From an uncultured Gracilibacteraceae bacterium (GTDB taxonomy: Bacteria; Bacillota; Desulfitobacteriia; Desulfitobacteriales; Syntrophobotulaceae): DNA of 64,000 nt. Position 1 is the stretch's first letter, and every line of letters begins with the position of its first letter. The notes under the pieces were generated by a model. That model was given only the letters and a program-made list of their open reading frames with translations. It was not told where the DNA came from and made no database searches. A program made the position numbers and the translations under genes. This document shows positions 17,652 through 55,929 of this stretch, one piece after another. The stretch spans positions 1,233 to 65,232 of the forward strand of contig CAYZDF010000005.1 of NCBI GenBank assembly GCA_964477085.1. The letters are read 5' to 3'.

Positions 17652-19304
17652 TCAGATCTTTTGATTATTAAGTATAGTTTTAATCTTGATGATACTTCTG
17701 TCAGTTATGGCTGAAGGACCGCCGATGGCTTCAAGTTGTACGTTACTGGGTAGTGTTTGAATGTACTTTTCTGTGGTTGAACCCGTTCCTGGACCGTCGG
17801 GTGAGATGAGGAGAATCGGTGAACCAGTCTTGGATGCCAGAGCAGCACCTGCTAAAGCATCAGGAAAGTTGTTTCCTGTTACCAGGAAAATCTTCATGAT
17901 GTCAGGGTATAATCCTTGAAGAATTTGGGTTGATGTTTCATAGCGGTCTTTTCCAGAAAATCGTGTAATATTTTCCTGAGTTAAACCGGTTACTTCCTGT
18001 ACCTTCTGGACGAGTTCGGATGAAACAACTTGTTCCCCGCCGGCGACGTATACGAAACTCGGGCTTAAGTTTCTTAGAACACCTTCTGTTGACTCTGGAA
18101 GTTTGTCTTTATCCACGAGCAGTAAGGGGTAACTCTCAGCTGCAGCCGCTGAAGCCAGACTTAGGGCATCTGGGAAGTTGCAGCCGGTAGCGATCGCTAC
18201 TCCACTGGCTTGGGGAAATTGGGCAGCGATCAAAGCAGCAGTCTCAAACCTGTCCTTCCCTGCTATCCTCTGGAAATCATCAGTCCAGTAAAGTAATTCC
18301 TTCAGTTGATTTTCCACATGATCGGAGATAGCTGATTTACCTCCGAGGATAATGATTTTGAGGGGCTTTAATCGGAGTAAAGCTTCTTGAACTCTAGGAT
18401 CGAGGCTATTGCTTGGTGTGATTAGGATGGGTGCATTATACTTCTTGGCTAAAGATGCTCCGGCCAAGGCATCTGGGAAATCCTCAGACTTGGCAATAAC
18501 TACGGTTTCGGTACCATATGGCCACCCTTGTTCTGCTATCTTTACCGTTGTATCAATACGGTCTGTACCCGAAATTCTTGGCACCGTTTGCAGTAAAGCT
18601 AATTCTGCACTACTGAATACAGGAGCAGCCATCTTGTAAGCAGCATAATGAATTGGCTGAGGCGTGTTCCAGGTTACGCCCTTCGATGGTACTGTTCCTG
18701 CCGGCAAAGAAGATTTGGGAACCGGCGTAATGCGAACAGGTGTGACAACACCCTTGTGAAATTCTTTAGCAATCAAATCAAGAATCTTATCCTGGTATGC
18801 TATTCTGCCCGCAGCTGCTGCATTATTGGGATTATTGCGTGTTGACCAGGTATTGTAAGCCCAGATGGCAAAGTACCAGTTCTCAAGCTTGGCCTTGTCA
18901 CCATCTCCTATCTGCGGTGTCATATTCCACTTAGAGATAAGGACGTCTGCGCCATAAGCAATGTTGAATTCTATATCATTTTTTAATTTACTGACGAAAG
19001 CAGTATCTGCAGGGTTATAGGTTCCAACCTGCATAATACCAAGATAAGGTGTTCGGCTGGCATAGTTGGCAACCACGTTTCCGTTACTATCCCATTGACG
19101 CCATCCTGATTCAACATAAGCGATAGCTTTGAGAATCTCGGCGGGAACTTGCTTTTCTTGAGCAACTTTATCAAAGATCTTGGCTATCTCTTCCAAAGAG
19201 GGGTTTTGTCCAGCATTGGCCGCACGAGGAATACCGGGTAATACCAGGCAAACAATGAGGAGTATAGTAAGAATCATTTTTAAATTTCTTTTCTGATTAC
19301 TCAT
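17652..19304 (-). CDS. Secreted cell-wall protein: N-terminal lytic-transglycosylase-like (SLT) domain + 3 CWB2 cell-wall-binding repeats
   Basis: Signal peptide. AIAYVESGWRQW...LGIMQV...NIAYGA motifs. Three repeats of the RISGxDRxxT...FPDALAGAxLA...PILL type. Confidence 0.7.
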   Translation of the reverse strand: MSNQKRNLKMILTILLIVCLVLPGIPRAANAGQNPSLEEIAKIFDKVAQEKQVPAEILKAIAYVESGWRQWDSNGNVVANYASRTPYLGIMQVGTYNPADTAFVSKLKNDIEFNIAYGADVLISKWNMTPQIGDGDKAKLENWYFAIWAYNTWSTRNNPNNAAAAGRIAYQDKILDLIAKEFHKGVVTPVRITPVPKSSLPAGTVPSKGVTWNTPQPIHYAAYKMAAPVFSSAELALLQTVPRISGTDRIDTTVKIAEQGWPYGTETVVIAKSEDFPDALAGASLAKKYNAPILITPSNSLDPRVQEALLRLKPLKIIILGGKSAISDHVENQLKELLYWTDDFQRIAGKDRFETAALIAAQFPQASGVAIATGCNFPDALSLASAAAAESYPLLLVDKDKLPESTEGVLRNLSPSFVYVAGGEQVVSSELVQKVQEVTGLTQENITRFSGKDRYETSTQILQGLYPDIMKIFLVTGNNFPDALAGAALASKTGSPILLISPDGPGTGSTTEKYIQTLPSNVQLEAIGGPSAITDRSIIKIKTILNNQKI

Positions 19305-19561
19305 TTTGCCTCCATAAATTATAAATAAGATGATTAAAGATGGTAATAATCGAAATCAACACGTAGCAGAATTAAACCTTATCCGTTAAGCCTGGGATAA
19401 ACATTTAACATAAAATATTCGTTATTAACAACTGATTTCCTTTAATCAATTATTTCCAACTCTTAATCCATACTGAGTTGTCATCGGAATACTTGTCTGG
19501 TATAACGTATTCACGGTTGTAAAGAATGTGCCGGTATATGCCAGTGTCTTCTATTGTTTGT

Positions 19562-19602
19562 CAAAAAAATGCCCAGCTAAGTGTGATAACTTGGTCGGGC
19601 AT
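19562..19602 (-). terminator. Rho-independent terminator after the upstream paralogue
   Basis: Minus strand reads ATGCCCGACC..loop..GCTGGGCAT followed by TTTTTTT. Confidence 0.6.
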
Positions 19603-19656
19603 TGTCTGGCTCTTAATGATTCTTGGTTATAAGGCTTTGCTCTTTGATTATTGTTG

Positions 19657-21306
19657 CTAAATATGTTTAAGTAAATATCTCACCTGCTTAACGGTGTCTT
19701 CGGTGATATTGCTTTCTCCGCCAATGACTTTAAGATTGGTAGATGCCGGCATAGTTCTTAGATATTGCTCTGTCGGACCATTGATAGTGAAACCCAGTGG
19801 GGAAACGAGTAATAGACACGCATTTCGTGTCGCTGCTAAAGCACCAGCTGCCAAAGGGTCAGTATAACTTTGTCCGGTAGCAATAAAGATTTCCTCTGTT
19901 CTGGGGTAGAAGGTCTGGGCGATTTTCACAGAAGTCTCATACCGGTTACTGCCTTGAATTCTAACGATGCTTTCATTAGAAGCACCTGATATCTGAGCAA
20001 TCTGTTCAACGACTTTGGTCGATACGGCCGCTTCTCCTCCGGCAATATATAACTTATTGGGCAAGAGCTGCTGAATCATATTTTTAGTCACTTCGGGTAT
20101 TTCTTGAGATGTGACCAATAAAAGCGGCATATCCCCACTGGCTGCAGCTGAAGCAAGGCTTAAAGCATCAGGAAAATCCATACCGGTAGCGACAGCTAAT
20201 CCATTTTCTTTGGGGAATTGCTGAGCGATCAGGGCTGATGTCTCAAATCTGTTCTGTCCGGCAATTCTCTCAATCGTACTTTCCCAATAAAGAACCTCAT
20301 CCAGCTTACTCTCGACTGCACTGCTGACTGCACCTTCTCCGCCGAGAATGATAGCCTTAAGTGGTTTAAGTTTTTGAAGGACTTCAATAACCTCTTCGTT
20401 TAGTTCATTGGGATCCGTTATCAGAATGGGTGCATTATTCATCTTTGCCAGGGGCACACCGGATAAAGCATCCGGAAAATCGTCGGAACGTGTAATAATC
20501 ACGGTCTCAGTGCCATAGGGCCAACCGTCTAAAGCGATTTGATTAACGGTATCAATCCTGTTCTGTCCCGCGATTCGGTAATAGGACCCAAGCGCAGCTC
20601 CACGGCTGGGGTCATCCCCGACACCAACATTTAAATCACCCAGAATATATGGTTCAGGTGTATTCCAGGTCTGACTTTTCTTAGGTACAGTCCCTAAGGG
20701 AATAAGCTCCGGCGGGATGGGCGTGATCTGAACGGCTGTTACCACTCCTGAGTAATACTCGGTGGCTGCTTTTCTTATAATGGCATCCTGGTAGGCCACT
20801 TTCCCCCGGGCCGCTGCATTATTGGGATTATTGACCGTCCCCCAGCTGTTATAAGCCCAAAGGGCGAAATACCAATTCTCCAGCTTGTTACGGTCTCCAT
20901 CTCCGATCTTGGGAACCATGTTCCACTTAGCATTCAAGAGGTCAGCACCGTATGCAATATTGAAATCAATATCATATTTCAATTTATTTACGAGTTCGGT
21001 ATCGTCGGGATTATAGCTGGTTACCTGCATAATTCCTAGTCCTGGACGCGGTCCGGCATTATTGGTCACGACGTTGCCATTCTTGTCAAATTGTCTCCAA
21101 CCTGTCTCGCAAAAAGCAATAGCCTTCAAAATAACACTGGGTATACCCTTTGATCGGGATATAATCTCTATTTTACGCGCAGTTTCTTCTAAGGATGGAT
21201 TCTGATAAGCCTGAATCTCAGCCCCCTGGATGGGACTGGCGTAAAAGGGCAAAACCAAAAGCACTGCCAGCAGAACTACCAGCAACCTTGGTTTTCTTTT
21301 AGACAT
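19657..21306 (-). CDS. Paralogous secreted SLT-like + 3 x CWB2 cell-wall protein
   Basis: Same architecture and collinear similarity to 17652..19304 (AIAFCETGWRQF, LGIMQV, NIAYGADLL, CWB2 repeats). RBS GAAGGAG. Confidence 0.7.
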   Translation of the reverse strand: MSKRKPRLLVVLLAVLLVLPFYASPIQGAEIQAYQNPSLEETARKIEIISRSKGIPSVILKAIAFCETGWRQFDKNGNVVTNNAGPRPGLGIMQVTSYNPDDTELVNKLKYDIDFNIAYGADLLNAKWNMVPKIGDGDRNKLENWYFALWAYNSWGTVNNPNNAAARGKVAYQDAIIRKAATEYYSGVVTAVQITPIPPELIPLGTVPKKSQTWNTPEPYILGDLNVGVGDDPSRGAALGSYYRIAGQNRIDTVNQIALDGWPYGTETVIITRSDDFPDALSGVPLAKMNNAPILITDPNELNEEVIEVLQKLKPLKAIILGGEGAVSSAVESKLDEVLYWESTIERIAGQNRFETSALIAQQFPKENGLAVATGMDFPDALSLASAAASGDMPLLLVTSQEIPEVTKNMIQQLLPNKLYIAGGEAAVSTKVVEQIAQISGASNESIVRIQGSNRYETSVKIAQTFYPRTEEIFIATGQSYTDPLAAGALAATRNACLLLVSPLGFTINGPTEQYLRTMPASTNLKVIGGESNITEDTVKQVRYLLKHI

Positions 21307-28837: not shown

Positions 28838-29221
28838 TCAACTTACAATTTGATAATCCTCTGCTAACAGATCTATCTGACTGGGTACCCATGGAACCAA
28901 CTTATTATCTGCTGTTTTTAACTCGAAATATGGCAGGTTTTCATATCCCATATCAAATTCAAGATTATCCCCACCAGGAATAACTAACCTTACCCACATA
29001 TTCTTACCATTCCAGCCAAGTCTTGAAACTCTAAAGTTTTTCTTCATAGCTTCGGTCGCTAGTCCTAATGTCAAACCGTCTGTTTTTCTATATGCTTCTT
29101 CAAATACAGTTTTTGGAGACCAGCTTTCATATGCATCTAGATAAACCACTTTATATCCATCTTCTGCATTCTTCATTTGTGGCTCTGCATGAATAATTTT
29201 CACACCAATATATTGTTCCAT
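28838..29221 (-). CDS. DUF2829-like protein (family of the anti-Thoeris sponge Tad2) with an N-terminal N4-gp49/Sf6-gp66-like segment
   Basis: C-terminal half AMKKNFRVSRLGWNGKNMWVRL...PYFELKTADNKLVPWVPSQIDLLAEDYQIV matches my memory of the DUF2829 pattern (R..W...........W.psq.DlLaeDW). RBS AAGGGGA. Confidence 0.55.
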   Translation of the reverse strand: MEQYIGVKIIHAEPQMKNAEDGYKVVYLDAYESWSPKTVFEEAYRKTDGLTLGLATEAMKKNFRVSRLGWNGKNMWVRLVIPGGDNLEFDMGYENLPYFELKTADNKLVPWVPSQIDLLAEDYQIVS

Positions 29222-29247
29222 TACTCATTTCCCCTTAGTTTTAAATA

Positions 29248-29427
29248 TTATCCTGGGTATGATAATCGCAGGAATAGTAGATATAACCCTACAAGCAGTA
29301 GTAATACTATTACTAGAATGGTGGCTATTATCCAATGACCCGTGACATACAAAGCAATCGAAGCATAAATGAAGGTTGCAAATATAAAACCAATAATAAC
29401 CCAGAACCAATCAACAATTTCACCCAT
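29248..29427 (-). CDS. Small two-TM membrane protein (59 aa)
   Basis: Start moved to the Met preceded by AAAGGTGGA. MGEIVDWFWVIIGFIFATFIYASIALYVTGHWIIATILVIVLLLLVGLYLLFL. Confidence 0.5.
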   Translation of the reverse strand: MGEIVDWFWVIIGFIFATFIYASIALYVTGHWIIATILVIVLLLLVGLYLLFLRLSYPG

Positions 29428-29464
29428 GATTCTTTTTCCACCTTTCTTCTGTCGCTTAGTGAAT

Positions 29465-29605
29465 CTAATGTGCAATATACTCCTGACTAGTTATATCTTG
29501 ATACTCTTGCTCAGTGATTTTACCTCTTGTCACCCAAACACTAAGTTGTTCAAGGGTTGCACCGTACTGCTCGAATGCCTTTTTACACCATGTATAGAAA
29601 TCCAT
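29465..29605 (-). CDS. XkdX-like small phage protein (46 aa, below ORF-track cutoff)
   Basis: Own translation: MDFYTWCKKAFEQYGATLEQLSVWVTRGKITEQEYQDITSQEYIAH. The ...V..GkIT.eeY..IT pattern is typical of the XkdX family. The ATG overlaps the upstream TAA (TAATG). Confidence 0.6.
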   Translation of the reverse strand: MDFYTWCKKAFEQYGATLEQLSVWVTRGKITEQEYQDITSQEYIAH

Positions 29606-32604: not shown

Positions 32605-33765
32605 CTATGTCAATCTTTCAGAAGTTATTGTAATCGTTCCAGGCACCAAGAGATCTCCGCTGCTTGCAACAACATCAGCTACAGGAGCCGTGATAATTAC
32701 ATTCAGTACCGGAGTTACACCCATACCAATCGATGTCAATCTTGCCAGGTATAAAGATTCGTCAATCTGCAGAGGCTTAAGAGCTTCAATGTCTTTATAA
32801 TCTTCATTGTAAGCGAACAGTGCATTATACCGGGCTTCTCCTTCAGCCTGAGTTGCTGTCAGATCTCCCTGAGCAGATGGCAGTACTAAAGTAATAGTAA
32901 TATCAACCGGAACTTCGTTAGGCCCTTTAACAAGCACATCAGCAATATTAGGCTTTTTTGTTCCGATATAGTCTTGAACCTGGGTAATCAAAGCAGGGGA
33001 TGGGATCCCTGACTCAGATGCTATCGTGACATCAACAGTACCTTGGCCACGGGGGTGGTTTGAATCTACTGTGGCACTTCGGACTCCTGGGATGCTTCTT
33101 GCCCATGAGATGTATGACGCATCGATGCCACCCTGGGCAAGCTCACTCCATTTTAACTGATATCTCTCTTGTAGGGCTTCATCCGTCTCTTCATCAGTGC
33201 CCTCAGTAGTAATCCAGTCAACTTCATTACGTACGTAATCGATTCCAGATACGTAAGTAACCATATCAGTGATGGTTTCTTCACCCACGTTATATTCGGA
33301 TCCGGAGAACTCAGCAATAATCGGCACAGATATTTCACTGCTCCCAGCAGATAGAACAAGAGAAGAGGTGTTCGTTGTGATGTATTTTAATTCTTTGCCA
33401 TTAGGTAAAACTTTGGTTTTGATGACGGAGCCAGCTGGAATATTAACGTTACCACTAGTGCTATTACGTCCATAAATAAGGTTCCCAATAGTCTTTGTTG
33501 CTGGGTACCTGGTGATGTCAACATCAGCACATTTAGCATCTAACCATTGTCCGGAAGATGTAGAAGCAAAACCATTAGGTACAACAGTTAAGAGCAAATT
33601 CCATAAATCCACTGCACCCTTGAGGCAAGCACTAACGAGACGGCGAAAGGCTCCAAACTTGTTATAGTTAGTGACTCTGCCACCGTTAGCACGGTATTCA
33701 TCGAAGGTTTCAGTTTCCATAGTTTCCTTATCCTTGTATCCTATGAGCGATTTCCAATCAATCAC
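32605..33765 (-). CDS. Baseplate J-like protein (Mu gp47-like)
   Basis: 386 aa. Position after the gpW/gp46-like gene and size/pattern typical of the Baseplate_J family. Confidence 0.65.
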   Translation of the reverse strand: MIDWKSLIGYKDKETMETETFDEYRANGGRVTNYNKFGAFRRLVSACLKGAVDLWNLLLTVVPNGFASTSSGQWLDAKCADVDITRYPATKTIGNLIYGRNSTSGNVNIPAGSVIKTKVLPNGKELKYITTNTSSLVLSAGSSEISVPIIAEFSGSEYNVGEETITDMVTYVSGIDYVRNEVDWITTEGTDEETDEALQERYQLKWSELAQGGIDASYISWARSIPGVRSATVDSNHPRGQGTVDVTIASESGIPSPALITQVQDYIGTKKPNIADVLVKGPNEVPVDITITLVLPSAQGDLTATQAEGEARYNALFAYNEDYKDIEALKPLQIDESLYLARLTSIGMGVTPVLNVIITAPVADVVASSGDLLVPGTITITSERLT

Positions 33766-34147
33766 GAGTTAACACCTCCACAGATAGTCCATCCAGATCA
33801 TATCCTAACACTAGGTTCATCGGGTTTCCTTCATCAATCGGGGTAAAACTACCTTGTATTCTGACGTTGTCCCGCTCCCATAGATCAACCACACATGCAG
33901 CTGATCCTGGTATAACTCTTGGGTCAGCTTCCAGCAGATCAACTACTCTCTGTTCAAAGTCCAGCCGGTTGATTTCGGTATACTCATCTTTGAGCATTTC
34001 AACTAGAGTGATCTCTGATAAAAGCATGATCCGCACGTCCTGAGCTAGGCAGTCTCTTCCTGTTACAAGGTTGATGTCACCATCAGCCTTGAGCACGAAG
34101 TCCCCGTCGATTATTTGAATATCGGTACCGAATTGTTCATTACTCAT
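33758..34147 (-). CDS. Baseplate wedge protein, gpW/gp25/Mu gp46-like
   Basis: 129 aa. GTDIQIIDGDFVLKADGDINLVTGRDCLAQDVRIML pattern is typical of XkdS/gp46-like proteins. Confidence 0.6.
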   Translation of the reverse strand: MSNEQFGTDIQIIDGDFVLKADGDINLVTGRDCLAQDVRIMLLSEITLVEMLKDEYTEINRLDFEQRVVDLLEADPRVIPGSAACVVDLWERDNVRIQGSFTPIDEGNPMNLVLGYDLDGLSVEVLTRD

Positions 34148-34400
34148 AGGTATGACCCTTTCTCTCAGTGTTATATGGAGCTTTTAGCAGTATCTTTACC
34201 AACTCTTTCGGGCTAATCCGTACCGCTCCCAAGGCTCTAGCCTTCTTCTTCATTCGTTCTGTGGTGAGGTCATAATGTGCTTGCCGAGTACCTTCTTTTT
34301 GAAACCAGACTCTTTTCAGGCCAACCATTCTGGCAAATGAATGAAGCTCTTCAAGGCTGGTATCAGATATAAGATGGCCTATCTGGTCATAATAGAGCAT
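34140..34400 (-). CDS. DUF4031-like small protein
   Basis: MLYYDQIGHLISDTSLEELHSFARMVGLKRVWFQKEGTRQAHYDLTTERMKKKARALGA fits my memory of the DUF4031 pattern (H..sD...eLh.fA...Gl...wfq....pHYDl). Translationally coupled to the upstream gene. Confidence 0.5.
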   Translation of the reverse strand: MLYYDQIGHLISDTSLEELHSFARMVGLKRVWFQKEGTRQAHYDLTTERMKKKARALGAVRISPKELVKILLKAPYNTERKGHTYE

Positions 34401-34402
34401 CT

Positions 34403-35452
34403 TTAATATACATTGATATAGACACTGAATCCTTTAGCCTCAAGGCGTTCCTTTTCCTTCTCTGCATTTTGCTTGTAGGCATAGGCTCCGGTTTGCACCT
34501 TAAACCAGCCATCCACAGTGGTGATAAACGTCTTCGGCCAACCATCAGAGGCTAGGTTAGCTTTTAGCCTGTCTGCATTTTCTCTAACCTTAAACGCTCC
34601 CACCTGGACCCGGTAAAGCTTCGGTAATGGTTTTGGATCTGTTTTATCATCCGGCTTTATGTCGTCCGGGAGTTCCTCTTTCTGGTTTGTTGTCACAAAT
34701 GCTTCCATGAACGGATACTCATAAGGGAAGAAGCAGATGCCGTTTAGACCCCAACTTGGTCCCCAAGAGTTCTTTGTCGGCAGCCAACGTTCTTTATCAC
34801 TGTACCCAAGGTTACTCATGGCATGATACCCTAGCAGAGCTTCTCCCTTTTTAGGTATTGGCACAACAGGGTTGTCTTTGGTCACTTTCCGGAATGACTC
34901 ATATACCGGAATGTTGTACTGTACTTTTCCACTTTGCAGTAAGCCGTTTTTGATAACGAATATAGGATCATAATCAACGTACTCACGATAAACCGGTGAA
35001 TATGCTTCAATTTTAAAGTGAGCTGCGTCAAGAATTACTTCTGTCCAACGTTCCTGAAAGATCTCATACAGTTCCGGGAAAGTTCCTATCTCCGGGAAGA
35101 GCGGGTATCTACAAACACCCCTATTTAATGCTCTTTGCCACATCGCTTTGGCAAACATTCCTTCTCCCCACCAATCAGATCCCGGAACACGGTTGCTGTA
35201 CATACAGCCGAAGGATAAGCGTATATCGATACCATGTTCTTCTTTTTCCTGATCTTCTCGAATATCTACACCTGAAAAGGCAGAGCACATATCTTTGTCT
35301 TCTTGGTCGTAGACAGATCCGATTGGACGCATAAACTCTTCTGGGAATACGTTGACCGGTGCCATAAGAAGCTGAACACTAAAATCTTTTTTAGGTTCCC
35401 TGGGTGAAGGTAAAAGGGTTAATTTACGGTCTTTGAGAGCTATCTCTGACAT
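34403..35452 (-). CDS. Papain-like (C1 family) cysteine peptidase fused to a C-terminal SPOR peptidoglycan-binding domain
   Basis: Q-x5-C in DQEDKDMCSAFSG (Gln/Cys), YHAMSNLGY (His) and WLPTKNSWGPSWGLNG (Asn-Ser-Trp-Gly) match the papain catalytic motifs. C-terminal LYRVQVGAFKVRENADRLKANL...FKVQTGAYAYKQNAEKEKERLEAKGF is SPOR-like. RBS AGGAGGGG. Confidence 0.75.
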   Translation of the reverse strand: MSEIALKDRKLTLLPSPREPKKDFSVQLLMAPVNVFPEEFMRPIGSVYDQEDKDMCSAFSGVDIREDQEKEEHGIDIRLSFGCMYSNRVPGSDWWGEGMFAKAMWQRALNRGVCRYPLFPEIGTFPELYEIFQERWTEVILDAAHFKIEAYSPVYREYVDYDPIFVIKNGLLQSGKVQYNIPVYESFRKVTKDNPVVPIPKKGEALLGYHAMSNLGYSDKERWLPTKNSWGPSWGLNGICFFPYEYPFMEAFVTTNQKEELPDDIKPDDKTDPKPLPKLYRVQVGAFKVRENADRLKANLASDGWPKTFITTVDGWFKVQTGAYAYKQNAEKEKERLEAKGFSVYINVY

Positions 35453-35470
35453 TGGTTTTCCCCTCCTAGA

Positions 35471-35713
35471 TTAATATCTTCTATTCCTGCTGGCCATCCT
35501 TTTGGCCAGCTTTTTACCTTTGGTCGGCTGCAGAACTAATTCCATTATTGGTTTCGGTTTTGGCGGTTTTGGCGGCGTTATGATCTTCGCATTTTTTGGC
35601 GGATCAGCCATCTCGTATGGAAATCCGTCAGTGATTTTTGGGGCTTCTCTAAGCAACGCTGTTCGCACTTCCTCACAGTTTAAATACTCTTGCGGGTATG
35701 TAACTCCGACCAT
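35471..35713 (-). CDS. Hypothetical Pro/Lys-rich 80-aa protein
   Basis: RBS AGGAGG. PPKNAKIITPPKPPKPKP low-complexity core and a basic C-terminus. Confidence 0.5.
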   Translation of the reverse strand: MVGVTYPQEYLNCEEVRTALLREAPKITDGFPYEMADPPKNAKIITPPKPPKPKPIMELVLQPTKGKKLAKRMASRNRRY

Positions 35714-35754: not shown

Positions 35755-36252
35755 TTACGGAATTGTACTTCCGTTAATAGTACCTGTCACCGTCAGATCT
35801 CCATTGATCGTGGTGACCGGTGAAGTTATGTCCACTGTCTGAGCTTCTATTTTTGCAGAATTTGCTGTGACTTTTACTTCAGTATCAGCTGCTATCACCA
35901 AGGTACCTATAGAATGGTCAGTGACAGCTCCGGAGCCGAGGACTGCATCGATGTATGGTTGTCCGGGATCATTGTAATAAAACCCCACCCTGACCAGGGA
36001 GCCGACAGCCGGTACTCCATATATTCCTGTGGATGACCCTGTCCAGAGAGCTGGTGCATTGACTGCTGGGAGTACAGGGAAGCTTTCATCCGGACGACCG
36101 TCACGGCCAAGCACTTGAATGTCTACCGCATAGGGTCCGTTCTCATATGTCTTGGTGACTATCCCTTTGACCTTATAAGGTATCCCTTTAATCTCAGGGA
36201 TTGCTTCAAAAACAAGCTTTCTCCACGCTATAAGCCACTCACTTTTTCCCAT
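35755..36252 (-). CDS. Baseplate spike/assembly protein V-like (Mu gp45-like)
   Basis: OB-fold-like VKGIVTKTYENGPYAVDIQVLG...PVLP...GVPAVGSLVRVGFYYNDPGQPYI followed by a C-terminal beta-helix-like repeat. Confidence 0.65.
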   Translation of the reverse strand: MGKSEWLIAWRKLVFEAIPEIKGIPYKVKGIVTKTYENGPYAVDIQVLGRDGRPDESFPVLPAVNAPALWTGSSTGIYGVPAVGSLVRVGFYYNDPGQPYIDAVLGSGAVTDHSIGTLVIAADTEVKVTANSAKIEAQTVDITSPVTTINGDLTVTGTINGSTIP

Positions 36253-46412: not shown

Positions 46413-47495
46413 CTACTGGTTGTACTTATCAACCAGTTCCTGTTCGATCCCCAGCTGTTTGTTGATAGACAACTGGACATCATCAGGTATTGCCGTTTTC
46501 TCTGTTCTCGTAAGATTGATTTGATCTAAGGGCACAACCACAGGAGCCTGATCAACAAATGCCTTGAATCCTTCAGGATCCTTGAGAGCATACTTCTCGG
46601 CCCAGTCCTTCTGAGCTGGAGTTATCTTTCCGTTGGATAGTGCCATCGACACAAGCTCGTTGCGGTCACGTTGATCAAGCTTGTCTTTGAGAGAAATGAA
46701 ATCTTCTTTGCTGACATAGCCGTCCGGGTTCTTCAGGGCGATTACTCTGCCTTTTACTTCAGCAAGGGTTGCAGTATCTTTGAGGTCAAGCAAGCTTAGT
46801 ACTTCTGCATGAGCTGTGGCAGGATCTGTCTGTTTGGATTTCAGAGCTTTCAAAGATGTGAGTGCTTCAGCAGCTTCTGCATCTTCTTTGATCCCGAGGA
46901 TGATGTTGATGTCTTTGAGGTTGTTTGCTGGTGGAGCAGCTTTTAAAGCTTTTACAGCCTCCAGTATTTTTGGTTCTTCAGGTGATTCAATGCCGAGTAT
47001 TTCGGCCAGTTTTTTAAGCATCAGTTTTTCCTCCTTTAAACTATTACTTTGGTTCAGGTTCTTCAGTACTATCGGTAGCACGTTGGCCATGGCCGGGTCG
47101 TTGGTAAGGGCTACGTTTTTAACTGCGACCAGCACTTTATCATTTTTACGAGTGTAGATAACAGGGGAGAAGTACCGGTATTCTTTGTTCAGAATGTACT
47201 GACTGGCATTTCCGGTCCATTCAGCTTTCGCCCATATGCCGTCTTCTCGTGCTTCGTAATCCTTAATCCAACCTGCTGCAGGTGCCTGGCCACCATCCAA
47301 GGTTTGGTGTTCGTAGTCGATCACCGTGTCGTTACCTCGTTCACGGAATGTGTTGATAATCAGATCGGCACTTTCCCTGGTGACAAAGAAGTCACCTTTG
47401 GTGCTCTTTACAAACCCCCAGGGGAAAAGTCTAAACCATTCCGGAACTCCATCTAGTTCATTAGCTAAGATAAGTGGTATAAGGTTTTTATTCAC
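46413..47495 (-). CDS. Head maturation protease / scaffold, Mu gpI-like
   Basis: FPWGFVKSTKGDFFVTRESADLIINTF...IDYEHQTL...AAGWI...YRYFSPVI is typical of the Mu I protein. GTG start with RBS GGAGGGGG. Confidence 0.75.
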   Translation of the reverse strand: MNKNLIPLILANELDGVPEWFRLFPWGFVKSTKGDFFVTRESADLIINTFRERGNDTVIDYEHQTLDGGQAPAAGWIKDYEAREDGIWAKAEWTGNASQYILNKEYRYFSPVIYTRKNDKVLVAVKNVALTNDPAMANVLPIVLKNLNQSNSLKEEKLMLKKLAEILGIESPEEPKILEAVKALKAAPPANNLKDINIILGIKEDAEAAEALTSLKALKSKQTDPATAHAEVLSLLDLKDTATLAEVKGRVIALKNPDGYVSKEDFISLKDKLDQRDRNELVSMALSNGKITPAQKDWAEKYALKDPEGFKAFVDQAPVVVPLDQINLTRTEKTAIPDDVQLSINKQLGIEQELVDKYNQ

Positions 47496-52428: not shown

Positions 52429-52755
52429 TCAGCCCTCCTTGTTTCCATTGCTTTTCATACTCATGACTGCATCATATATCTTGTCTAGCTTACGTTCGTA
52501 GTTGGCCGTTACCCGAACAAACTCACTCTTACTGACATAGTCTTTAAACTGTCCGGCGATCTCTTTGGCTTGCTCAACCCTAAAGGTGTTATACTCTTTT
52601 TTAAATGCTTCCAGCTTACAGTCAGTGTCTTCAATTTTTTGCTTGTTTTCAGTGATATCTTCCTGGATGCTTTTCTTCAAGTCTTTGATAAAGTAAGCAA
52701 TAATCCCCAAGGCAACCATCGTAAGTGTTTGTACTATCCAGCTCATCTCCGGCAT
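52429..52755 (-). CDS. N-terminally anchored coiled-coil membrane protein (lysis accessory candidate)
   Basis: TM helix IVQTLTMVALGIIAYFI followed by a charged helix. Follows the holin-like gene. Confidence 0.45.
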   Translation of the reverse strand: MPEMSWIVQTLTMVALGIIAYFIKDLKKSIQEDITENKQKIEDTDCKLEAFKKEYNTFRVEQAKEIAGQFKDYVSKSEFVRVTANYERKLDKIYDAVMSMKSNGNKEG

Positions 52756-52765
52756 GATACCACCC

Positions 52766-53281
52766 TTAGCTGCTTATTTCAGGAGCTACTGGATTGTCTT
52801 TCAAAGCTATTTCATCAAGACGAGGTACTTTAGCTAATGCTAATTGAGGGCTCCTCTGCTTGACTAATTCCAGTTTCTCCTCAATAAGATTCATGATGTA
52901 TGTTTCTGCATCGCCCATGGTGCCATTGATAACGTTTAAATATTCCGGTTCGAGCGTTTTGACAATCTCCTTGTATGCTTCTAGAGATAACAATTTAAGG
53001 TCTTCTTTGTTTTTAACACCATTCCTAATTGCAAGTAGCAGCTGTTCTTTCGTGGTCTGTTCAATCTTATTGACAGTCTTAAAAGCAACATCATCCAGAC
53101 GAGCCAGGGCAGAGAATAAGAAGTCTCTGGTAGCTTCATCCTGAACCTTTTCGGTCTCAGCTTGCAGTTTCTTAATACCTTTCTGAACATAAAAGGTAGC
53201 AAGTGCACCTAAGAGAGCCATTACGGCTATCATAAGGTTAACTAAAATCTCAGTTGCTGCAGTAGTGATTTCCACCGGCAT
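52766..53281 (-). CDS. Holin-like protein (LL-H holin family pattern)
   Basis: N-terminal TM helix (ILVNLMIAVMALLGALATFYV) plus a long charged helical tail, as in LL-H-type holins. RBS AAGGAGG. Confidence 0.5.
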   Translation of the reverse strand: MPVEITTAATEILVNLMIAVMALLGALATFYVQKGIKKLQAETEKVQDEATRDFLFSALARLDDVAFKTVNKIEQTTKEQLLLAIRNGVKNKEDLKLLSLEAYKEIVKTLEPEYLNVINGTMGDAETYIMNLIEEKLELVKQRSPQLALAKVPRLDEIALKDNPVAPEISS

Positions 53282-55098: not shown

Positions 55099-55929
55099 CT
55101 ATCCTTTGTTTACATAATCAAGTACTGCTTTGCCGGTTTGTTTGCGGCCCTTACCAGTATGGTGCTCGAACAGTTTAATTTTCTGGCCTTCGACTACGTA
55201 CTCGTCTTCTGTACCCCCAACCCCATGAACTTCTTCAAAAGCGTTTACCAGCTGTAGTGAGGCTATCCCTAGTCGTATGGCCGGTGCCTTAAGATCTTCC
55301 TGGAGATAGGGGACGATCCTTTCTTCAGCATCGCCAAAGTAAAGTATTAGGGCTGGAAGTTTAGCCATTTTGTTTTCCTCCTGTTTATATGGAATTTCTA
55401 AAGCTTTTGAGAGCCCTACACAAATAGCTTCTGCGACCTTCTCATCAAAGCTATCCTGCTTCATTAGTGCTTCCTCTTTTGGATTTGAGATGAAACCTAC
55501 TTCGACTAAAATGGCTGGGCATTTAGTTTCTCTGATAACATGAAGATTACCATATTTAGCCCCACGATCTGCTAGATTAGTTACTTTGATAAGTTCTGCC
55601 TGAACAGCTTCAGCGATAGTTTTATCTGCTTGCTTATAGTAGAATGTTTCGATCCCGTGAGCTGATGGACTGGAGACGGAATTACCATGGATCGAAACAA
55701 GGTACTCTGCTCCCCATTGGTTAGACTTGTTACTTACATCCCATAGATCCCCATCTTGAATCAATACGGTCATCCAGCCATTTCTGCTCAGCTTAGATTG
55801 TACTAATTTTGAAACTTCATAGGCTTGATCAGATTCTTTCAGACCCGTCGGGCCAATCGCACCAGGGTCAAAGATACCTGAATTTTTTGGCCCATGTCCT
55901 GAGTTGATTACGATTCTAGGTGATGCCAT
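55099..55929 (-). CDS. N-acetylmuramoyl-L-alanine amidase (Amidase_3) with an uncharacterised C-terminal domain of about 85 aa
   Basis: VINSGHGPKNSG..DPGA...SIHGNS...HGIETFYY...AILVEVGFISNPKE Zn-amidase motifs. RBS AAGGAGG. Confidence 0.8.
   Translation of the reverse strand: MASPRIVINSGHGPKNSGIFDPGAIGPTGLKESDQAYEVSKLVQSKLSRNGWMTVLIQDGDLWDVSNKSNQWGAEYLVSIHGNSVSSPSAHGIETFYYKQADKTIAEAVQAELIKVTNLADRGAKYGNLHVIRETKCPAILVEVGFISNPKEEALMKQDSFDEKVAEAICVGLSKALEIPYKQEENKMAKLPALILYFGDAEERIVPYLQEDLKAPAIRLGIASLQLVNAFEEVHGVGGTEDEYVVEGQKIKLFEHHTGKGRKQTGKAVLDYVNKG

What the first reader, a model, noticed from the sequence alone, without database searches (positions are those of the whole stretch)
34403..35452. 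Papain-like cysteine peptidase fused to a SPOR domain inside the baseplate operon
The 349-aa product carries all four papain-family landmarks:
- Gln and Cys in DQEDKDMCSAFS.
- His in YHAMSNLGY.
- Asn-Ser-Trp-Gly in KNSWGPSWGLNG.

It ends in a duplicated beta-alpha-beta SPOR-like peptidoglycan-binding module (YRVQVGAFKVRENADRLKANL...FKVQTGAYAYKQNAEKEKERLEAKGF). It sits between the spike (gp45-like) and wedge (gp46-like) genes, which are contiguous in Mu.

Tail-associated wall-degrading enzymes are normally glycosidases, amidases or NlpC/P60 and M23 peptidases. A C1 peptidase targeted to septal or denuded glycan by SPOR is unusual. The host encodes CWB2-anchored surface proteins (17652-21306), so one hypothesis is a virion or lysis protease that cuts proteinaceous surface layers or stem peptides.
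Basis: partly seen in the sequence, partly recalled or inferred. Interest (0 to 1): 0.6.

Follow-up and report, generated by a model that had tools for sequence, protein, structure and literature searches.

The report
Papain-type wall-targeted phage lysis enzyme
A Mu-like prophage of a Gram-positive (Bacillota) bacterium encodes, among its tail-baseplate genes, a papain-family cysteine protease joined to a SPOR cell-wall-binding module; its relatives sit beside or fused to ordinary phage wall-cutting enzymes, so it most likely helps burst the host, a job never tested for this protease family.

Summary
The gene lies on the minus strand at 34403-35452. It has a strong ribosome-binding site and encodes 349 aa:
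- a 35-residue N-terminal extension
- a papain-fold (C1A, xylellain-type) domain with Gln50, Cys56, His210 and Asn228-Ser-Trp intact
- a Pro/Asp/Lys linker
- one SPOR domain.

It sits between the spike and the gp25/W-like wedge gene of a Mu-like prophage. A related prophage has it in the same slot.

The pairing is not unique. Among 142 nearest 50%-identity cluster representatives, 136 score as Peptidase_C1. Their partner domains are:

| Partner domain | Representatives |
|---|---|
| SPOR | 39 |
| Cu_amine_oxidN1 | 32 |
| SLH | 11 |
| CWB2 | 1 |
| fused amidase, M23 or glucosaminidase | several |

None of the 113 family members with an identified wall-binding or amidase partner domain has a secretion signal.

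In eight of the nine other gene neighbourhoods examined, the gene is fused or adjacent to an amidase or muramidase, next to a holin, or at a prophage end in the usual lysis position.

Best reading (about 0.6): a holin-dependent accessory lysin expressed with the tail genes. It would work with the prophage's separate holin and Amidase_3.

A virion-borne entry enzyme is less likely (about 0.2). The substrate, peptidoglycan peptide or wall protein, is unresolved and untested. The same theme was noted earlier in this scan on other DNA.

The parts
34403..35452 (-). Whole gene for the 349-aa C1A peptidase-SPOR protein (P0001), stop codon included
   Evidence: ORF list and translation. Homologues.
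35462..35467 (-). Shine-Dalgarno AGGAGG, 9 nt upstream of the ATG
   Evidence: Sequence read. No convincing minus-strand terminator or promoter separates the gene from its neighbours.
35348..35452 (-). N-terminal extension (residues 1-35) carrying the family motif PSP..-..D
   Evidence: P15, S16 and D23 are invariant in close relatives. The extension is modelled packed on the domain, pLDDT 67-87. No hydrophobic stretch, so no signal peptide or SAR. Inferred equivalent of xylellain's short pro-region.
34688..35347 (-). Papain-fold catalytic domain (residues 36-255). Codons: Gln50 35303-35305, Cys56 35285-35287, His210 34823-34825, Asn228 34769-34771
   Evidence: Conservation. AF2 model and Foldseek to 3OIS, papain and cathepsins. 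Phage C1 folds in BFVD.
34622..34687 (-). Pro/Asp/Lys-rich flexible linker (residues 256-277)
   Evidence: pLDDT below 50 at residues 259-267 and 271-276.
34406..34621 (-). SPOR cell-wall-binding domain (residues 278-349)
   Evidence: Pfam PF05036 E 3e-14. CwlC 1X60 at 2e-10 and FtsN 1UTA at 1e-5. 85% identical to P0002, against 57% for the catalytic domain.
35471..35713 (-). Co-inserted 80-aa Pro/Lys-rich ORF with its own AGGAGG; no family match
   Evidence: In the relative L002/L005 an unrelated 62-aa ORF with an N-terminal hydrophobic helix replaces it.
34140..34400 (-). Co-inserted DUF4031 gene (86 aa); starts 2 nt after the peptidase stop and overlaps the wedge gene start
   Evidence: Pfam DUF4031 5e-18 and PHROG 4887. 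Absent from L002/L005.
35755..36252 (-). Upstream neighbour: spike / gp45-like baseplate protein
   Evidence: PHROG 4011 at 1e-17; weak Phage_base_V.
33758..34147 (-). Downstream neighbour: gp25/W/gp46-like wedge protein
   Evidence: DUF2590 3e-8 and PHROG 120.
52766..53281 (-). Prophage holin (171 aa, N-terminal TM helix), first gene after Mor. Presumed exit route for the lysin
   Evidence: PHROG 36209 'holin' 1e-36. Hydropathy.
55099..55929 (-). Prophage Amidase_3 endolysin-type gene (276 aa). Presumed partner enzyme that creates denuded glycan
   Evidence: Pfam Amidase_3 6e-42. PHROG 435 'endolysin' 2e-48.

Best explanation
The gene encodes a modular, signal-less phage lysin of the 'catalytic domain + wall-binding domain' type. 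The catalytic domain is a xylellain-type papain-family (C1A) cysteine peptidase and the wall-binding domain is SPOR.

Proposed mechanism:
1. The gene is transcribed and translated with the late baseplate genes, and the protein accumulates in the cytoplasm.
2. It reaches the wall only when the prophage holin (52766-53281) opens the membrane.
3. SPOR concentrates it on peptide-free ('denuded') glycan. That ligand is produced by the prophage's own Amidase_3 (55099-55929) and by host septal amidases.
4. The Cys56/His210 dyad cleaves peptide bonds in the wall. The target is either residual peptidoglycan cross-links or wall-anchored proteins.
5. This accelerates or completes lysis as an accessory to the amidase, not as the sole endolysin.

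Shown here: the fold, the intact catalytic residues, the SPOR domain, the absence of an export signal, co-orientation and tight packing with the tail genes, and lysis-cassette linkage of relatives.

Inferred: holin dependence, cooperation with the amidase, and the substrate.
For: **Fold and catalytic residues:**

**EAD+CBD layout with nothing else:** N-terminal extension 1-35, C1 36-255, disordered linker, SPOR 278-349.

**No hydrophobic segment.** The maximum Kyte-Doolittle value over 19 aa is 0.67. None of 113 family members carrying a wall-binding or amidase domain has a hydrophobic N-terminus.

**Partner-domain tally of 142 nearest representatives**:

| Domain | Count |
|---|---|
| SPOR | 39 |
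| Cu_amine_oxidN1 | 32 |
| SLH | 11 |
| Amidase_2 | 4 |
| PG_binding_1 | 3 |
| Amidase_3 | 2 |
| PG_binding_3 | 2 |
| CWB2 | 1 |
| Glucosaminidase | 1 |
| M23 | 1 |
| CW_7 | 1 |

- The partner labels are shuffled across the C1 tree, as in endolysin evolution.
- The tree sister of the P0001/P0002 pair, P0025, is C1+Amidase_2.

**Gene neighbourhoods of relatives:**

| Locus | Arrangement |
|---|---|
| L003 | C1-SPOR, then Amidase_2, then Phage_holin_6_1 |
| L004 | BhlA holin, then C1+Amidase_2 |
| L008 (a genome of the host's own genus) | XhlA-like, then C1+Amidase_2, then holin PHROG 297 |
| L108 | Phage_holin_4_1, then C1+Amidase_2 |
| L109 | Amidase_3, then C1+CWB2 with overlapping starts |
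| L110 | C1+Cu_amine_oxidN1, then Amidase_2 |
| L107 | C1-SPOR at a prophage end beside the recombinase |
| THSA-485A | GH25 endolysin, then C1 |

**This prophage has the other lysis parts, but they are dispersed.** The holin is at 52766-53281 and the Amidase_3 at 55099-55929. No endolysin lies next to the holin, nor after the XkdX / 2-TM genes at the right end.

**Expression signals.** There is a strong SD, the genes are tightly packed, and no internal terminator was found.

**Literature.** SPOR is a documented, if rare, endolysin wall-binding domain (PMC11674121; PlyGspY412 in PMC6963370). SPOR binds denuded glycan (PMC6895207).
Against: - The gene is not next to a holin here. It sits inside the baseplate block, and the slot is conserved in the one related prophage lineage found. 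That would also fit a virion role.
- No C1A peptidase has been shown to cut peptidoglycan. The closest solved relative, xylellain, is (from my own knowledge) a conventional protein/peptide protease.
- A separate clade of single-domain phage C1 peptidases lies among DNA-metabolism genes, not lysis genes.
- One CBD-bearing relative lies in an ordinary chromosomal context.
- The residues just before Cys56 (D-M-C) depart from the family's G-S-C, so reduced or altered activity cannot be excluded.
- I could not read the model's coordinates, so the Cys-His distance was not measured.
Confidence: 0.6

Rival explanations
1. Virion-associated (tail-tip) wall-degrading enzyme. The protein is assembled on or near the spike and locally opens the wall, or a surface protein layer, during infection.
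For: - The gene lies between spike and wedge, co-oriented and tightly packed with the baseplate genes.
- The same slot is occupied in the related prophage L002/L005.
- The catalytic domain evolves about 2.5-3.5 times faster than the neighbouring structural proteins (dN 0.36 vs 0.13-0.15; 57% vs 78-86% identity). Host-contact proteins often behave this way.
- L109 places an Amidase_3 / C1+CWB2 pair right after tail-tube genes.
Against: - There is no domain left over for attachment to the virion; every residue is accounted for by extension, C1, linker and SPOR.
- A dedicated wall-binding domain is typical of endolysins rather than of virion lysins (my knowledge of the field, not tested here).
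- Relatives with wall-binding or amidase domains sit beside holins or are fused to amidases.
- SPOR's ligand, denuded glycan, is enriched at septa or after amidase action, not over the general outer surface that a tail meets (PMC6895207).
Confidence: 0.2
2. Lysis-time protease of wall-anchored proteins (S-layer or CWB2 proteins) rather than of peptidoglycan. It would serve as a 'third-layer' lysis factor analogous in logic to spanins or mycobacteriophage LysB. This is a substrate variant of the best explanation.
For: - C1A enzymes are protein endopeptidases.
- Family members carry S-layer-type anchors: SLH 11, CWB2 1, Cu_amine_oxidN1 32.
- In every lysis-type context seen, the C1 domain accompanies, and never replaces, an amidase or muramidase. 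One relative is fused to M23, itself a peptidoglycan endopeptidase, which hints at a non-redundant target.
- The host genome has 22 CWB2 repeats in at least 8 ORFs, some of 670-820 aa.
- Cwp84 of Clostridioides difficile is a precedent for a wall-anchored C1A enzyme cutting an S-layer protein (PMC5842191, PMC4973711).
Against: - There is no direct evidence for any substrate.
- SPOR targets glycan, not protein.
- Two-enzyme endolysins with an amidase plus a peptidoglycan endopeptidase (CHAP, also papain-fold) are the commoner precedent.
Confidence: 0.2
3. A protease unrelated to wall lysis, for example one that processes a tail or tape-measure protein, or a moron acting on a host or competitor protein. 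SPOR would be incidental.
For: - The gene lies in a three-gene accessory insertion with two genes of unknown function: an 80-aa ORF and DUF4031.
- Single-domain phage C1 peptidases occur in non-lysis contexts.
Against: - SPOR is well conserved (85% identity, dN 0.10), so it is under constraint.
- Morphogenetic proteases do not carry peptidoglycan-binding modules.
- The prophage already has a Mu-like protease I (46413-47495).
- The closest relatives are lysis-linked.
Confidence: 0.06

Closest known systems
Xylellain (Xylella fastidiosa cysteine protease, PDB 3OIS) and the 'short bacterial, xylellain-type' C1A peptidases
   Same: - Best sequence match (4e-8) and best structure match (E 3e-17, TM 0.77).
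- Same Gln/Cys/His/Asn set and a short N-terminal extension in place of a long propeptide.
- PMC10380794 reports that this type was acquired by Myoviridae and Siphoviridae.
   Different: - Xylellain is a single-domain bacterial enzyme with no wall-binding module and no phage-lysis context.
- Only about 22% identical.
- This protein adds SPOR and is encoded in a phage tail operon.
Modular endolysins of Gram-positive phages with SPOR as wall-binding domain (e.g. PlyGspY412, Amidase_3+SPOR; Bacillus phage Amidase_2/3+SPOR endolysins; B. subtilis CwlC)
   Same: - N-terminal catalytic domain, linker and C-terminal SPOR; no signal peptide.
- The SPOR here is 45-52% identical to SPOR of amidase-type lysins and matches CwlC SPOR at 2e-10.
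- SPOR-bearing endolysins are described in PMC11674121 and PMC6963370.
   Different: - The catalytic domain is a C1A peptidase rather than an amidase.
- The gene is in the baseplate block, not beside the holin.
Two-enzyme staphylococcal-type endolysins (CHAP endopeptidase + Amidase_2, e.g. LysK/LysGH15)
   Same: Relatives P0006, P0019, P0025, P0064 and the L008 protein have exactly this layout, with C1 in the CHAP position followed by Amidase_2 and next to holins. CHAP is also a papain-fold Cys/His enzyme (PMC10318531).
   Different: - C1A is a different family from CHAP (C51) and NlpC/P60, and has no demonstrated peptidoglycan activity.
- In this window the two enzymes are separate genes about 20 kb apart.
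Cwp84 of Clostridioides difficile (C1A peptidase + CWB2, matures the S-layer protein SlpA)
   Same: A papain-family peptidase is held on a Gram-positive wall by a non-covalent wall-binding module. One relative (P0283) is C1+CWB2.
   Different: - Cwp84 is a secreted host housekeeping enzyme with a signal peptide and propeptide, and it uses CWB2.
- This protein is phage-encoded, signal-less and uses SPOR.
- Cwp84 was not among the best sequence or structure matches.
Phage Mu gp45-gp46 baseplate junction
   Same: The flanking genes match the spike and the gp25/W-like wedge, followed by Baseplate_J and a P2-I-like gene.
   Different: - Three extra genes are inserted here.
- A distant transposable prophage (G008) has nothing homologous to them at this junction, and its hub and wedge genes lie close together.

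Membership tests
Peptidase family C1 (papain family, subfamily C1A, xylellain type) | Catalytic Cys preceded by the oxyanion-hole Gln six residues upstream | tested here: met
   Q50 and C56 are invariant in the 9-sequence alignment and at least 90% conserved in 142 representatives.
Peptidase family C1 (papain family, subfamily C1A, xylellain type) | Catalytic His and orienting Asn followed by Ser-Trp | tested here: met
   H210, N228 and S229 are at least 90% conserved. W230 is invariant in the 9-sequence alignment.
Peptidase family C1 (papain family, subfamily C1A, xylellain type) | Score above the curated Pfam PF00112 threshold | tested here: not met
   19.3 bits against a cut-off of 20.7, E 1.3e-3, C-terminal half only. 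However, 136 of 142 nearest relatives pass at E <= 0.001, best 1e-23.
Peptidase family C1 (papain family, subfamily C1A, xylellain type) | Two-lobed papain fold | tested here: met
   The AF2 model has pLDDT 87. By Foldseek, 3OIS scores E 3e-17 and papain, cathepsins and Der p 1 score about 1e-11.
Peptidase family C1 (papain family, subfamily C1A, xylellain type) | Cys-His geometry and thiol-dependent, E-64-sensitive proteolysis | not testable with these tools
   Model coordinates were not readable in the Python box. No biochemistry was possible.
SPOR domain (PF05036) | HMM match above the curated threshold and the beta-alpha-beta-beta-alpha-beta fold | tested here: met
   53.5 bits against a cut-off of 21. 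Model elements: E280-287, H290-302, E308-313, E316-324, H327-339, E345-348.
SPOR domain (PF05036) | Binding to denuded (peptide-free) glycan strands | not testable with these tools
   Property of the family per PMC6895207. Not assayed.
Phage endolysin (holin-dependent, modular EAD+CBD) | Catalytic domain plus wall-binding domain, with no secretion signal | tested here: met
Phage endolysin (holin-dependent, modular EAD+CBD) | Gene adjacent to a holin in a lysis cassette | tested here: not met
   - In this window the holin (52766-53281) is about 17 kb away and the gene lies in the baseplate block.
- The feature is met in relatives L003, L004, L008 and L108.
Phage endolysin (holin-dependent, modular EAD+CBD) | Demonstrated peptidoglycan hydrolysis / lysis from without | not testable with these tools
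   No tested lysin with a C1 domain turned up in six full-text searches aimed at it.
Virion-associated peptidoglycan hydrolase (tail lysin) | Encoded in the tail/baseplate module | tested here: met
Virion-associated peptidoglycan hydrolase (tail lysin) | Fused to or containing a structural (tape-measure, hub, spike or fibre) domain | tested here: not met
   No residues are left unassigned outside the extension, C1, linker and SPOR.
Virion-associated peptidoglycan hydrolase (tail lysin) | Present in purified virions | not testable with these tools
   Needs proteomics.
Cwp84-like S-layer-processing C1A peptidases | Signal peptide, propeptide and CWB2 anchor | tested here: not met
   No signal peptide. 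The anchor is SPOR, not CWB2.

The most novel reading that the evidence does not exclude
Papain-family (C1A) peptidases are a widespread, so far untested class of phage lysis enzyme in Bacillota. In this prophage the enzyme is not a peptidoglycan hydrolase at all. Its SPOR module would recruit it to glycan that the phage amidase has just stripped, and there it would cut wall-anchored proteins (S-layer or CWB2 proteins). That would be a dedicated step for removing the proteinaceous outer layer, analogous to what spanins or LysB do for other envelope types.
Probability: 0.2. Interest if true: 0.8.

Novelty: new variant of a known kind. Interest (0 to 1): 0.5.

Why it matters
- **A possible new lysin catalytic domain.**
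  - Catalogues of endolysin catalytic domains list glycosidases, amidases, and CHAP, NlpC/P60, M15 and M23 peptidases. I found no report of a tested C1A domain.
  - This gene belongs to a family of at least 329 clusters at 50% identity (E <= 1e-10). The family has all the genomic hallmarks of lysins: wall-binding modules, fusion to amidases, holin neighbours and no export signal.
  - If it is active on walls, it adds a catalytic module for engineered lysins against Clostridia and Bacilli.
- **A biological question.** What does a protein-type protease do at lysis, given that it always accompanies an amidase or muramidase?
- **An annotation lesson.**
  - This locus shows that a phage's lysis functions can be scattered. 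Here the holin sits after Mor, the amidase in the early region and the peptidase in the baseplate operon.
  - A 'missing endolysin next to the holin' is therefore not evidence of absence.

Tried and rejected
- **Locus searches.**
  - The search for related loci with the 7-sequence family alignment failed, because no stretch was conserved enough.
  - With P0001+P0002 it found nothing in genome contigs and only the P0002 phage fragment in IMG/VR.
- **Host identification.** ClpP gave best hits of only 77% (Paenibacillus / Paenibacillaceae MAGs, then many Clostridia). I call the host only 'Bacillota'.
- **dN/dS between the window and L002.** Synonymous sites are saturated, so only dN values are usable.
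- **Catalytic geometry.** The model file is not exposed to the Python box.
- **Literature.**
  - Six full-text searches for a tested C1-type endolysin or C1+SPOR found none.
  - The Methanobrevibacter paper only speculates about PF00112 adhesins.
- **Rejected idea: the SPOR region is two modules.** It is one SPOR domain.
- **Rejected idea: the neighbouring CWB2 proteins indicate an S-layer target.** They are SLT hydrolases.
- **Single-domain phage C1 clade.** These lie in DNA-metabolism contexts. I treated them as a separate, well-supported clade that does not inform this protein.
Full report
**1. The observation**

The ORF at 34403-35452 is on the minus strand and encodes 349 aa. AGGAGG lies 9 nt before the ATG.

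- Gln50 and Cys56 are six residues apart, as in papain.
- His210 lies in G-Y-H-A.
- Asn228-Ser229-Trp230 follows.

Q50, C56, N228 and W230 are invariant in a 9-sequence alignment that includes generic bacterial C1A peptidases. Q50, C56, H210, N228 and S229 are at least 90% conserved over 142 nearest cluster representatives.

On its own the protein narrowly misses Pfam's Peptidase_C1 threshold (19.3 vs 20.7 bits). The assignment is nevertheless secure:
- PHROG 16701 'peptidase' scores 2e-11.
- Xylellain (3OIS) matches by sequence at 4e-8.
- 136 of 142 relatives hit PF00112.
- An AlphaFold2 model (mean pLDDT 87) has xylellain as its best PDB match (E 3e-17, TM 0.77), followed by pro-papain, cathepsins S, K and B, and Der p 1.

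The C-terminus is one SPOR domain (PF05036, E 3e-14; CwlC SPOR 2e-10; FtsN SPOR 1e-5). It is modelled as beta-alpha-beta-beta-alpha-beta behind a disordered Pro/Asp/Lys linker.

**2. The surroundings**

The gene lies in a Mu-like transposable prophage that runs on the minus strand from about 62 kb to about 28.7 kb. Gene order:
- MuA, MuB, Amidase_3, Gam, GemA, Mor
- a holin (PHROG 36209, 1e-36), gp27, terminase, Mu portal, MuF, protease I, gpT capsid
- sheath, tube, tape measure, hub, spike
- [80-aa ORF, C1-SPOR, DUF4031]
- W/gp25-like wedge, Baseplate_J, P2-I-like, fibre
- XkdX-like, a 2-TM 75-aa protein, Tad2-like
- host genes

The three inserted genes are tightly packed. DUF4031 starts 2 nt after the peptidase stop and overlaps the wedge gene start. 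The pattern scan gave no convincing promoter or terminator between the genes. They are therefore late genes co-expressed with the baseplate.

A related prophage (L002, and the IMG/VR fragment L005) has the peptidase in the same slot. There it is preceded by an unrelated 62-aa ORF with a hydrophobic N-terminus, and DUF4031 is absent.

A distant transposable prophage in the same bacterial family (G008) has nothing homologous to the inserted genes there, and its hub and wedge genes lie close together.

**3. What the family looks like**

An exhaustive profile-free search found 329 clusters at 50% identity with E <= 1e-10. Pfam tally over the 142 best:

| Pfam family | Members |
|---|---|
| Peptidase_C1 | 136 |
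| SPOR | 39 |
| Cu_amine_oxidN1 | 32 |
| SLH | 11 |
| Amidase_2 | 4 |
| PG_binding_1 | 3 |
| Amidase_3 | 2 |
| PG_binding_3 | 2 |
| CWB2 | 1 |
| Glucosaminidase | 1 |
| M23 | 1 |
| CW_7 | 1 |

- Almost all members begin with the C1 domain at residue 1 and end with one small wall-binding module.
- None of the 113 members with a wall-binding or amidase partner has a hydrophobic N-terminus. P0001 itself has no hydrophobic segment anywhere.
- On a maximum-likelihood tree of the C1 domain, the partner domains are thoroughly shuffled. SPOR needs at least 8 gains or losses even on well-supported branches. This is the modular-swap pattern typical of endolysins.
- A well-supported clade of single-domain proteins stands apart.
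- The sister of the P0001/P0002 pair, P0025, is C1+Amidase_2. Other near relatives are C1+Amidase_3 and C1+M23.

**4. Where relatives are encoded**

| Locus | Arrangement |
|---|---|
| L003 | C1-SPOR, Amidase_2, Phage_holin_6_1 |
| L004 | BhlA holin, C1+Amidase_2 |
| L008 (a genome of the host's own genus) | XhlA-like protein, C1+Amidase_2 (481 aa), holin PHROG 297 |
| L108 | Phage_holin_4_1, C1+Amidase_2, at a prophage end |
| L109 | Amidase_3, then overlapping C1+CWB2, in an SPbeta-like phage |
| L110 | C1+Cu_amine_oxidN1, then overlapping Amidase_2 |
| L107 | C1-SPOR between small ORFs at a prophage end beside the recombinase |
| Thermoanaerobacterium phage THSA-485A | GH25 endolysin, then C1 peptidase |
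| L019 (exception) | C1+Cu_amine_oxidN1 in an ordinary chromosomal region |

The single-domain clade lies among DNA-metabolism genes of larger phages, and I do not use it for inference.

Thus eight of the nine other contexts of partner-bearing or close relatives link the C1 domain to lysis. In seven of them it is adjacent to, or fused with, a canonical peptidoglycan hydrolase. It accompanies the hydrolase and never replaces it.

**5. Reading**

The protein has the anatomy of a holin-dependent endolysin: a catalytic domain, a linker, a wall-binding domain and no export signal. Its relatives sit in lysis cassettes.

This prophage has a holin without an adjacent enzyme and an Amidase_3 in an odd, early-region position. 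Its lysis functions are therefore dispersed, and the baseplate position of the peptidase mainly guarantees late expression.

SPOR binds peptide-free glycan (PMC6895207), the product of amidases. A plausible sequence is:
1. The holin opens the membrane.
2. The amidase strips peptides from the glycan.
3. SPOR concentrates the peptidase on the stripped glycan.
4. The peptidase cuts what the amidase cannot.

The target may be residual cross-links, by the CHAP+amidase analogy. It may instead be wall-anchored proteins, by the Cwp84 analogy and given SLH/CWB2-type partners in relatives and a host with 22 CWB2 repeats. This is undecided.

A virion-borne role remains possible:
- The slot is conserved.
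- The catalytic domain diverges faster than its neighbours. It is 57% identical with dN 0.36. SPOR is 85% identical with dN 0.10, and structural neighbours are 78-86% identical with dN 0.13-0.15.

Against it, no residues are left for virion attachment, and a wall-binding domain is atypical for tail lysins.

**6. Comparison with the known**

- Xylellain-type short C1A peptidases are known to have been acquired by tailed phages (PMC10380794).
- SPOR is a known, rare endolysin wall-binding domain (PMC11674121, PMC6963370).
- CHAP+amidase endolysins provide the architectural template (PMC10318531).
- I found no report of a tested lysin with a C1A catalytic domain, or of C1+SPOR. A survey of Bacillus-phage endolysin architectures mentions none.
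- Earlier notes of this scan describe papain-type peptidases in lysis positions on other DNA. These are unverified AI notes. They show that the theme recurs, and I did not use them as evidence.

**7. Verdict**

- It is a new variant of a known kind: a modular endolysin-type enzyme with an uncharacterised catalytic family.
- Interest is moderate. It needs only routine biochemistry to settle.

Noticed in passing
window 55099-55929 (-): An Amidase_3 endolysin-type gene (PHROG 435, 2e-48) sits in the early/semi-essential region between MuB and Gam, far from the holin. Its C-terminal ~100 aa match no family. This is an unusual place for a phage's main wall hydrolase.
   Followed up: partly
window 52429-53281 (-): Directly after Mor, where Mu keeps its lysis genes, there is a 171-aa holin (PHROG 36209, 1e-36). 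A 108-aa ORF with a moderately hydrophobic N-terminus (PHROG 462) follows, but no enzyme.
   Followed up: partly
window 34140-34400 (-) and 35471-35713 (-): Two further genes share the insertion. One is DUF4031 (86 aa), translationally coupled to both neighbours. The other is an orphan 80-aa Pro/Lys-rich protein with a basic tail. Both are absent from the related prophage, which instead has a 62-aa ORF with a hydrophobic N-terminus before the peptidase.
   Followed up: partly
window 28838-29475 (-): The right end of the prophage carries an XkdX-like gene (29465-29605), a 75-aa two-TM protein with no family match (29248-29475), and a Tad2-like (Thoeris anti-defence) gene as the last gene (Pfam 2e-21). 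No endolysin follows the small membrane protein.
   Followed up: partly
window 17652-19304 and 19657-21306 (-): Two tandem host paralogues, each SLT transglycosylase + 3 CWB2 repeats. The genome has 22 CWB2 repeats in at least 8 ORFs and only 3 SLH matches.
   Followed up: partly
G008:C1 (L102-L106): A closed genome of the same bacterial family carries four copies of a distantly related Mu-like prophage's Baseplate_J gene, all scoring identically against the query. This is consistent with recent replicative transposition.
   Followed up: no
L017, L018, L020: A well-supported clade of single-domain phage C1 peptidases (about 275-293 aa) lies among ribonucleotide reductase, ligase, UDG and Thy1 genes of larger phages, not in lysis cassettes. 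Its role is unknown.
   Followed up: no
L019 4547-5509: A signal-less C1+Cu_amine_oxidN1 protein lies in a conserved chromosomal region near the spore protease gpr, YceD and PlsX. It may be a host autolysin of the CwlC (mother-cell lysis) kind.
   Followed up: no
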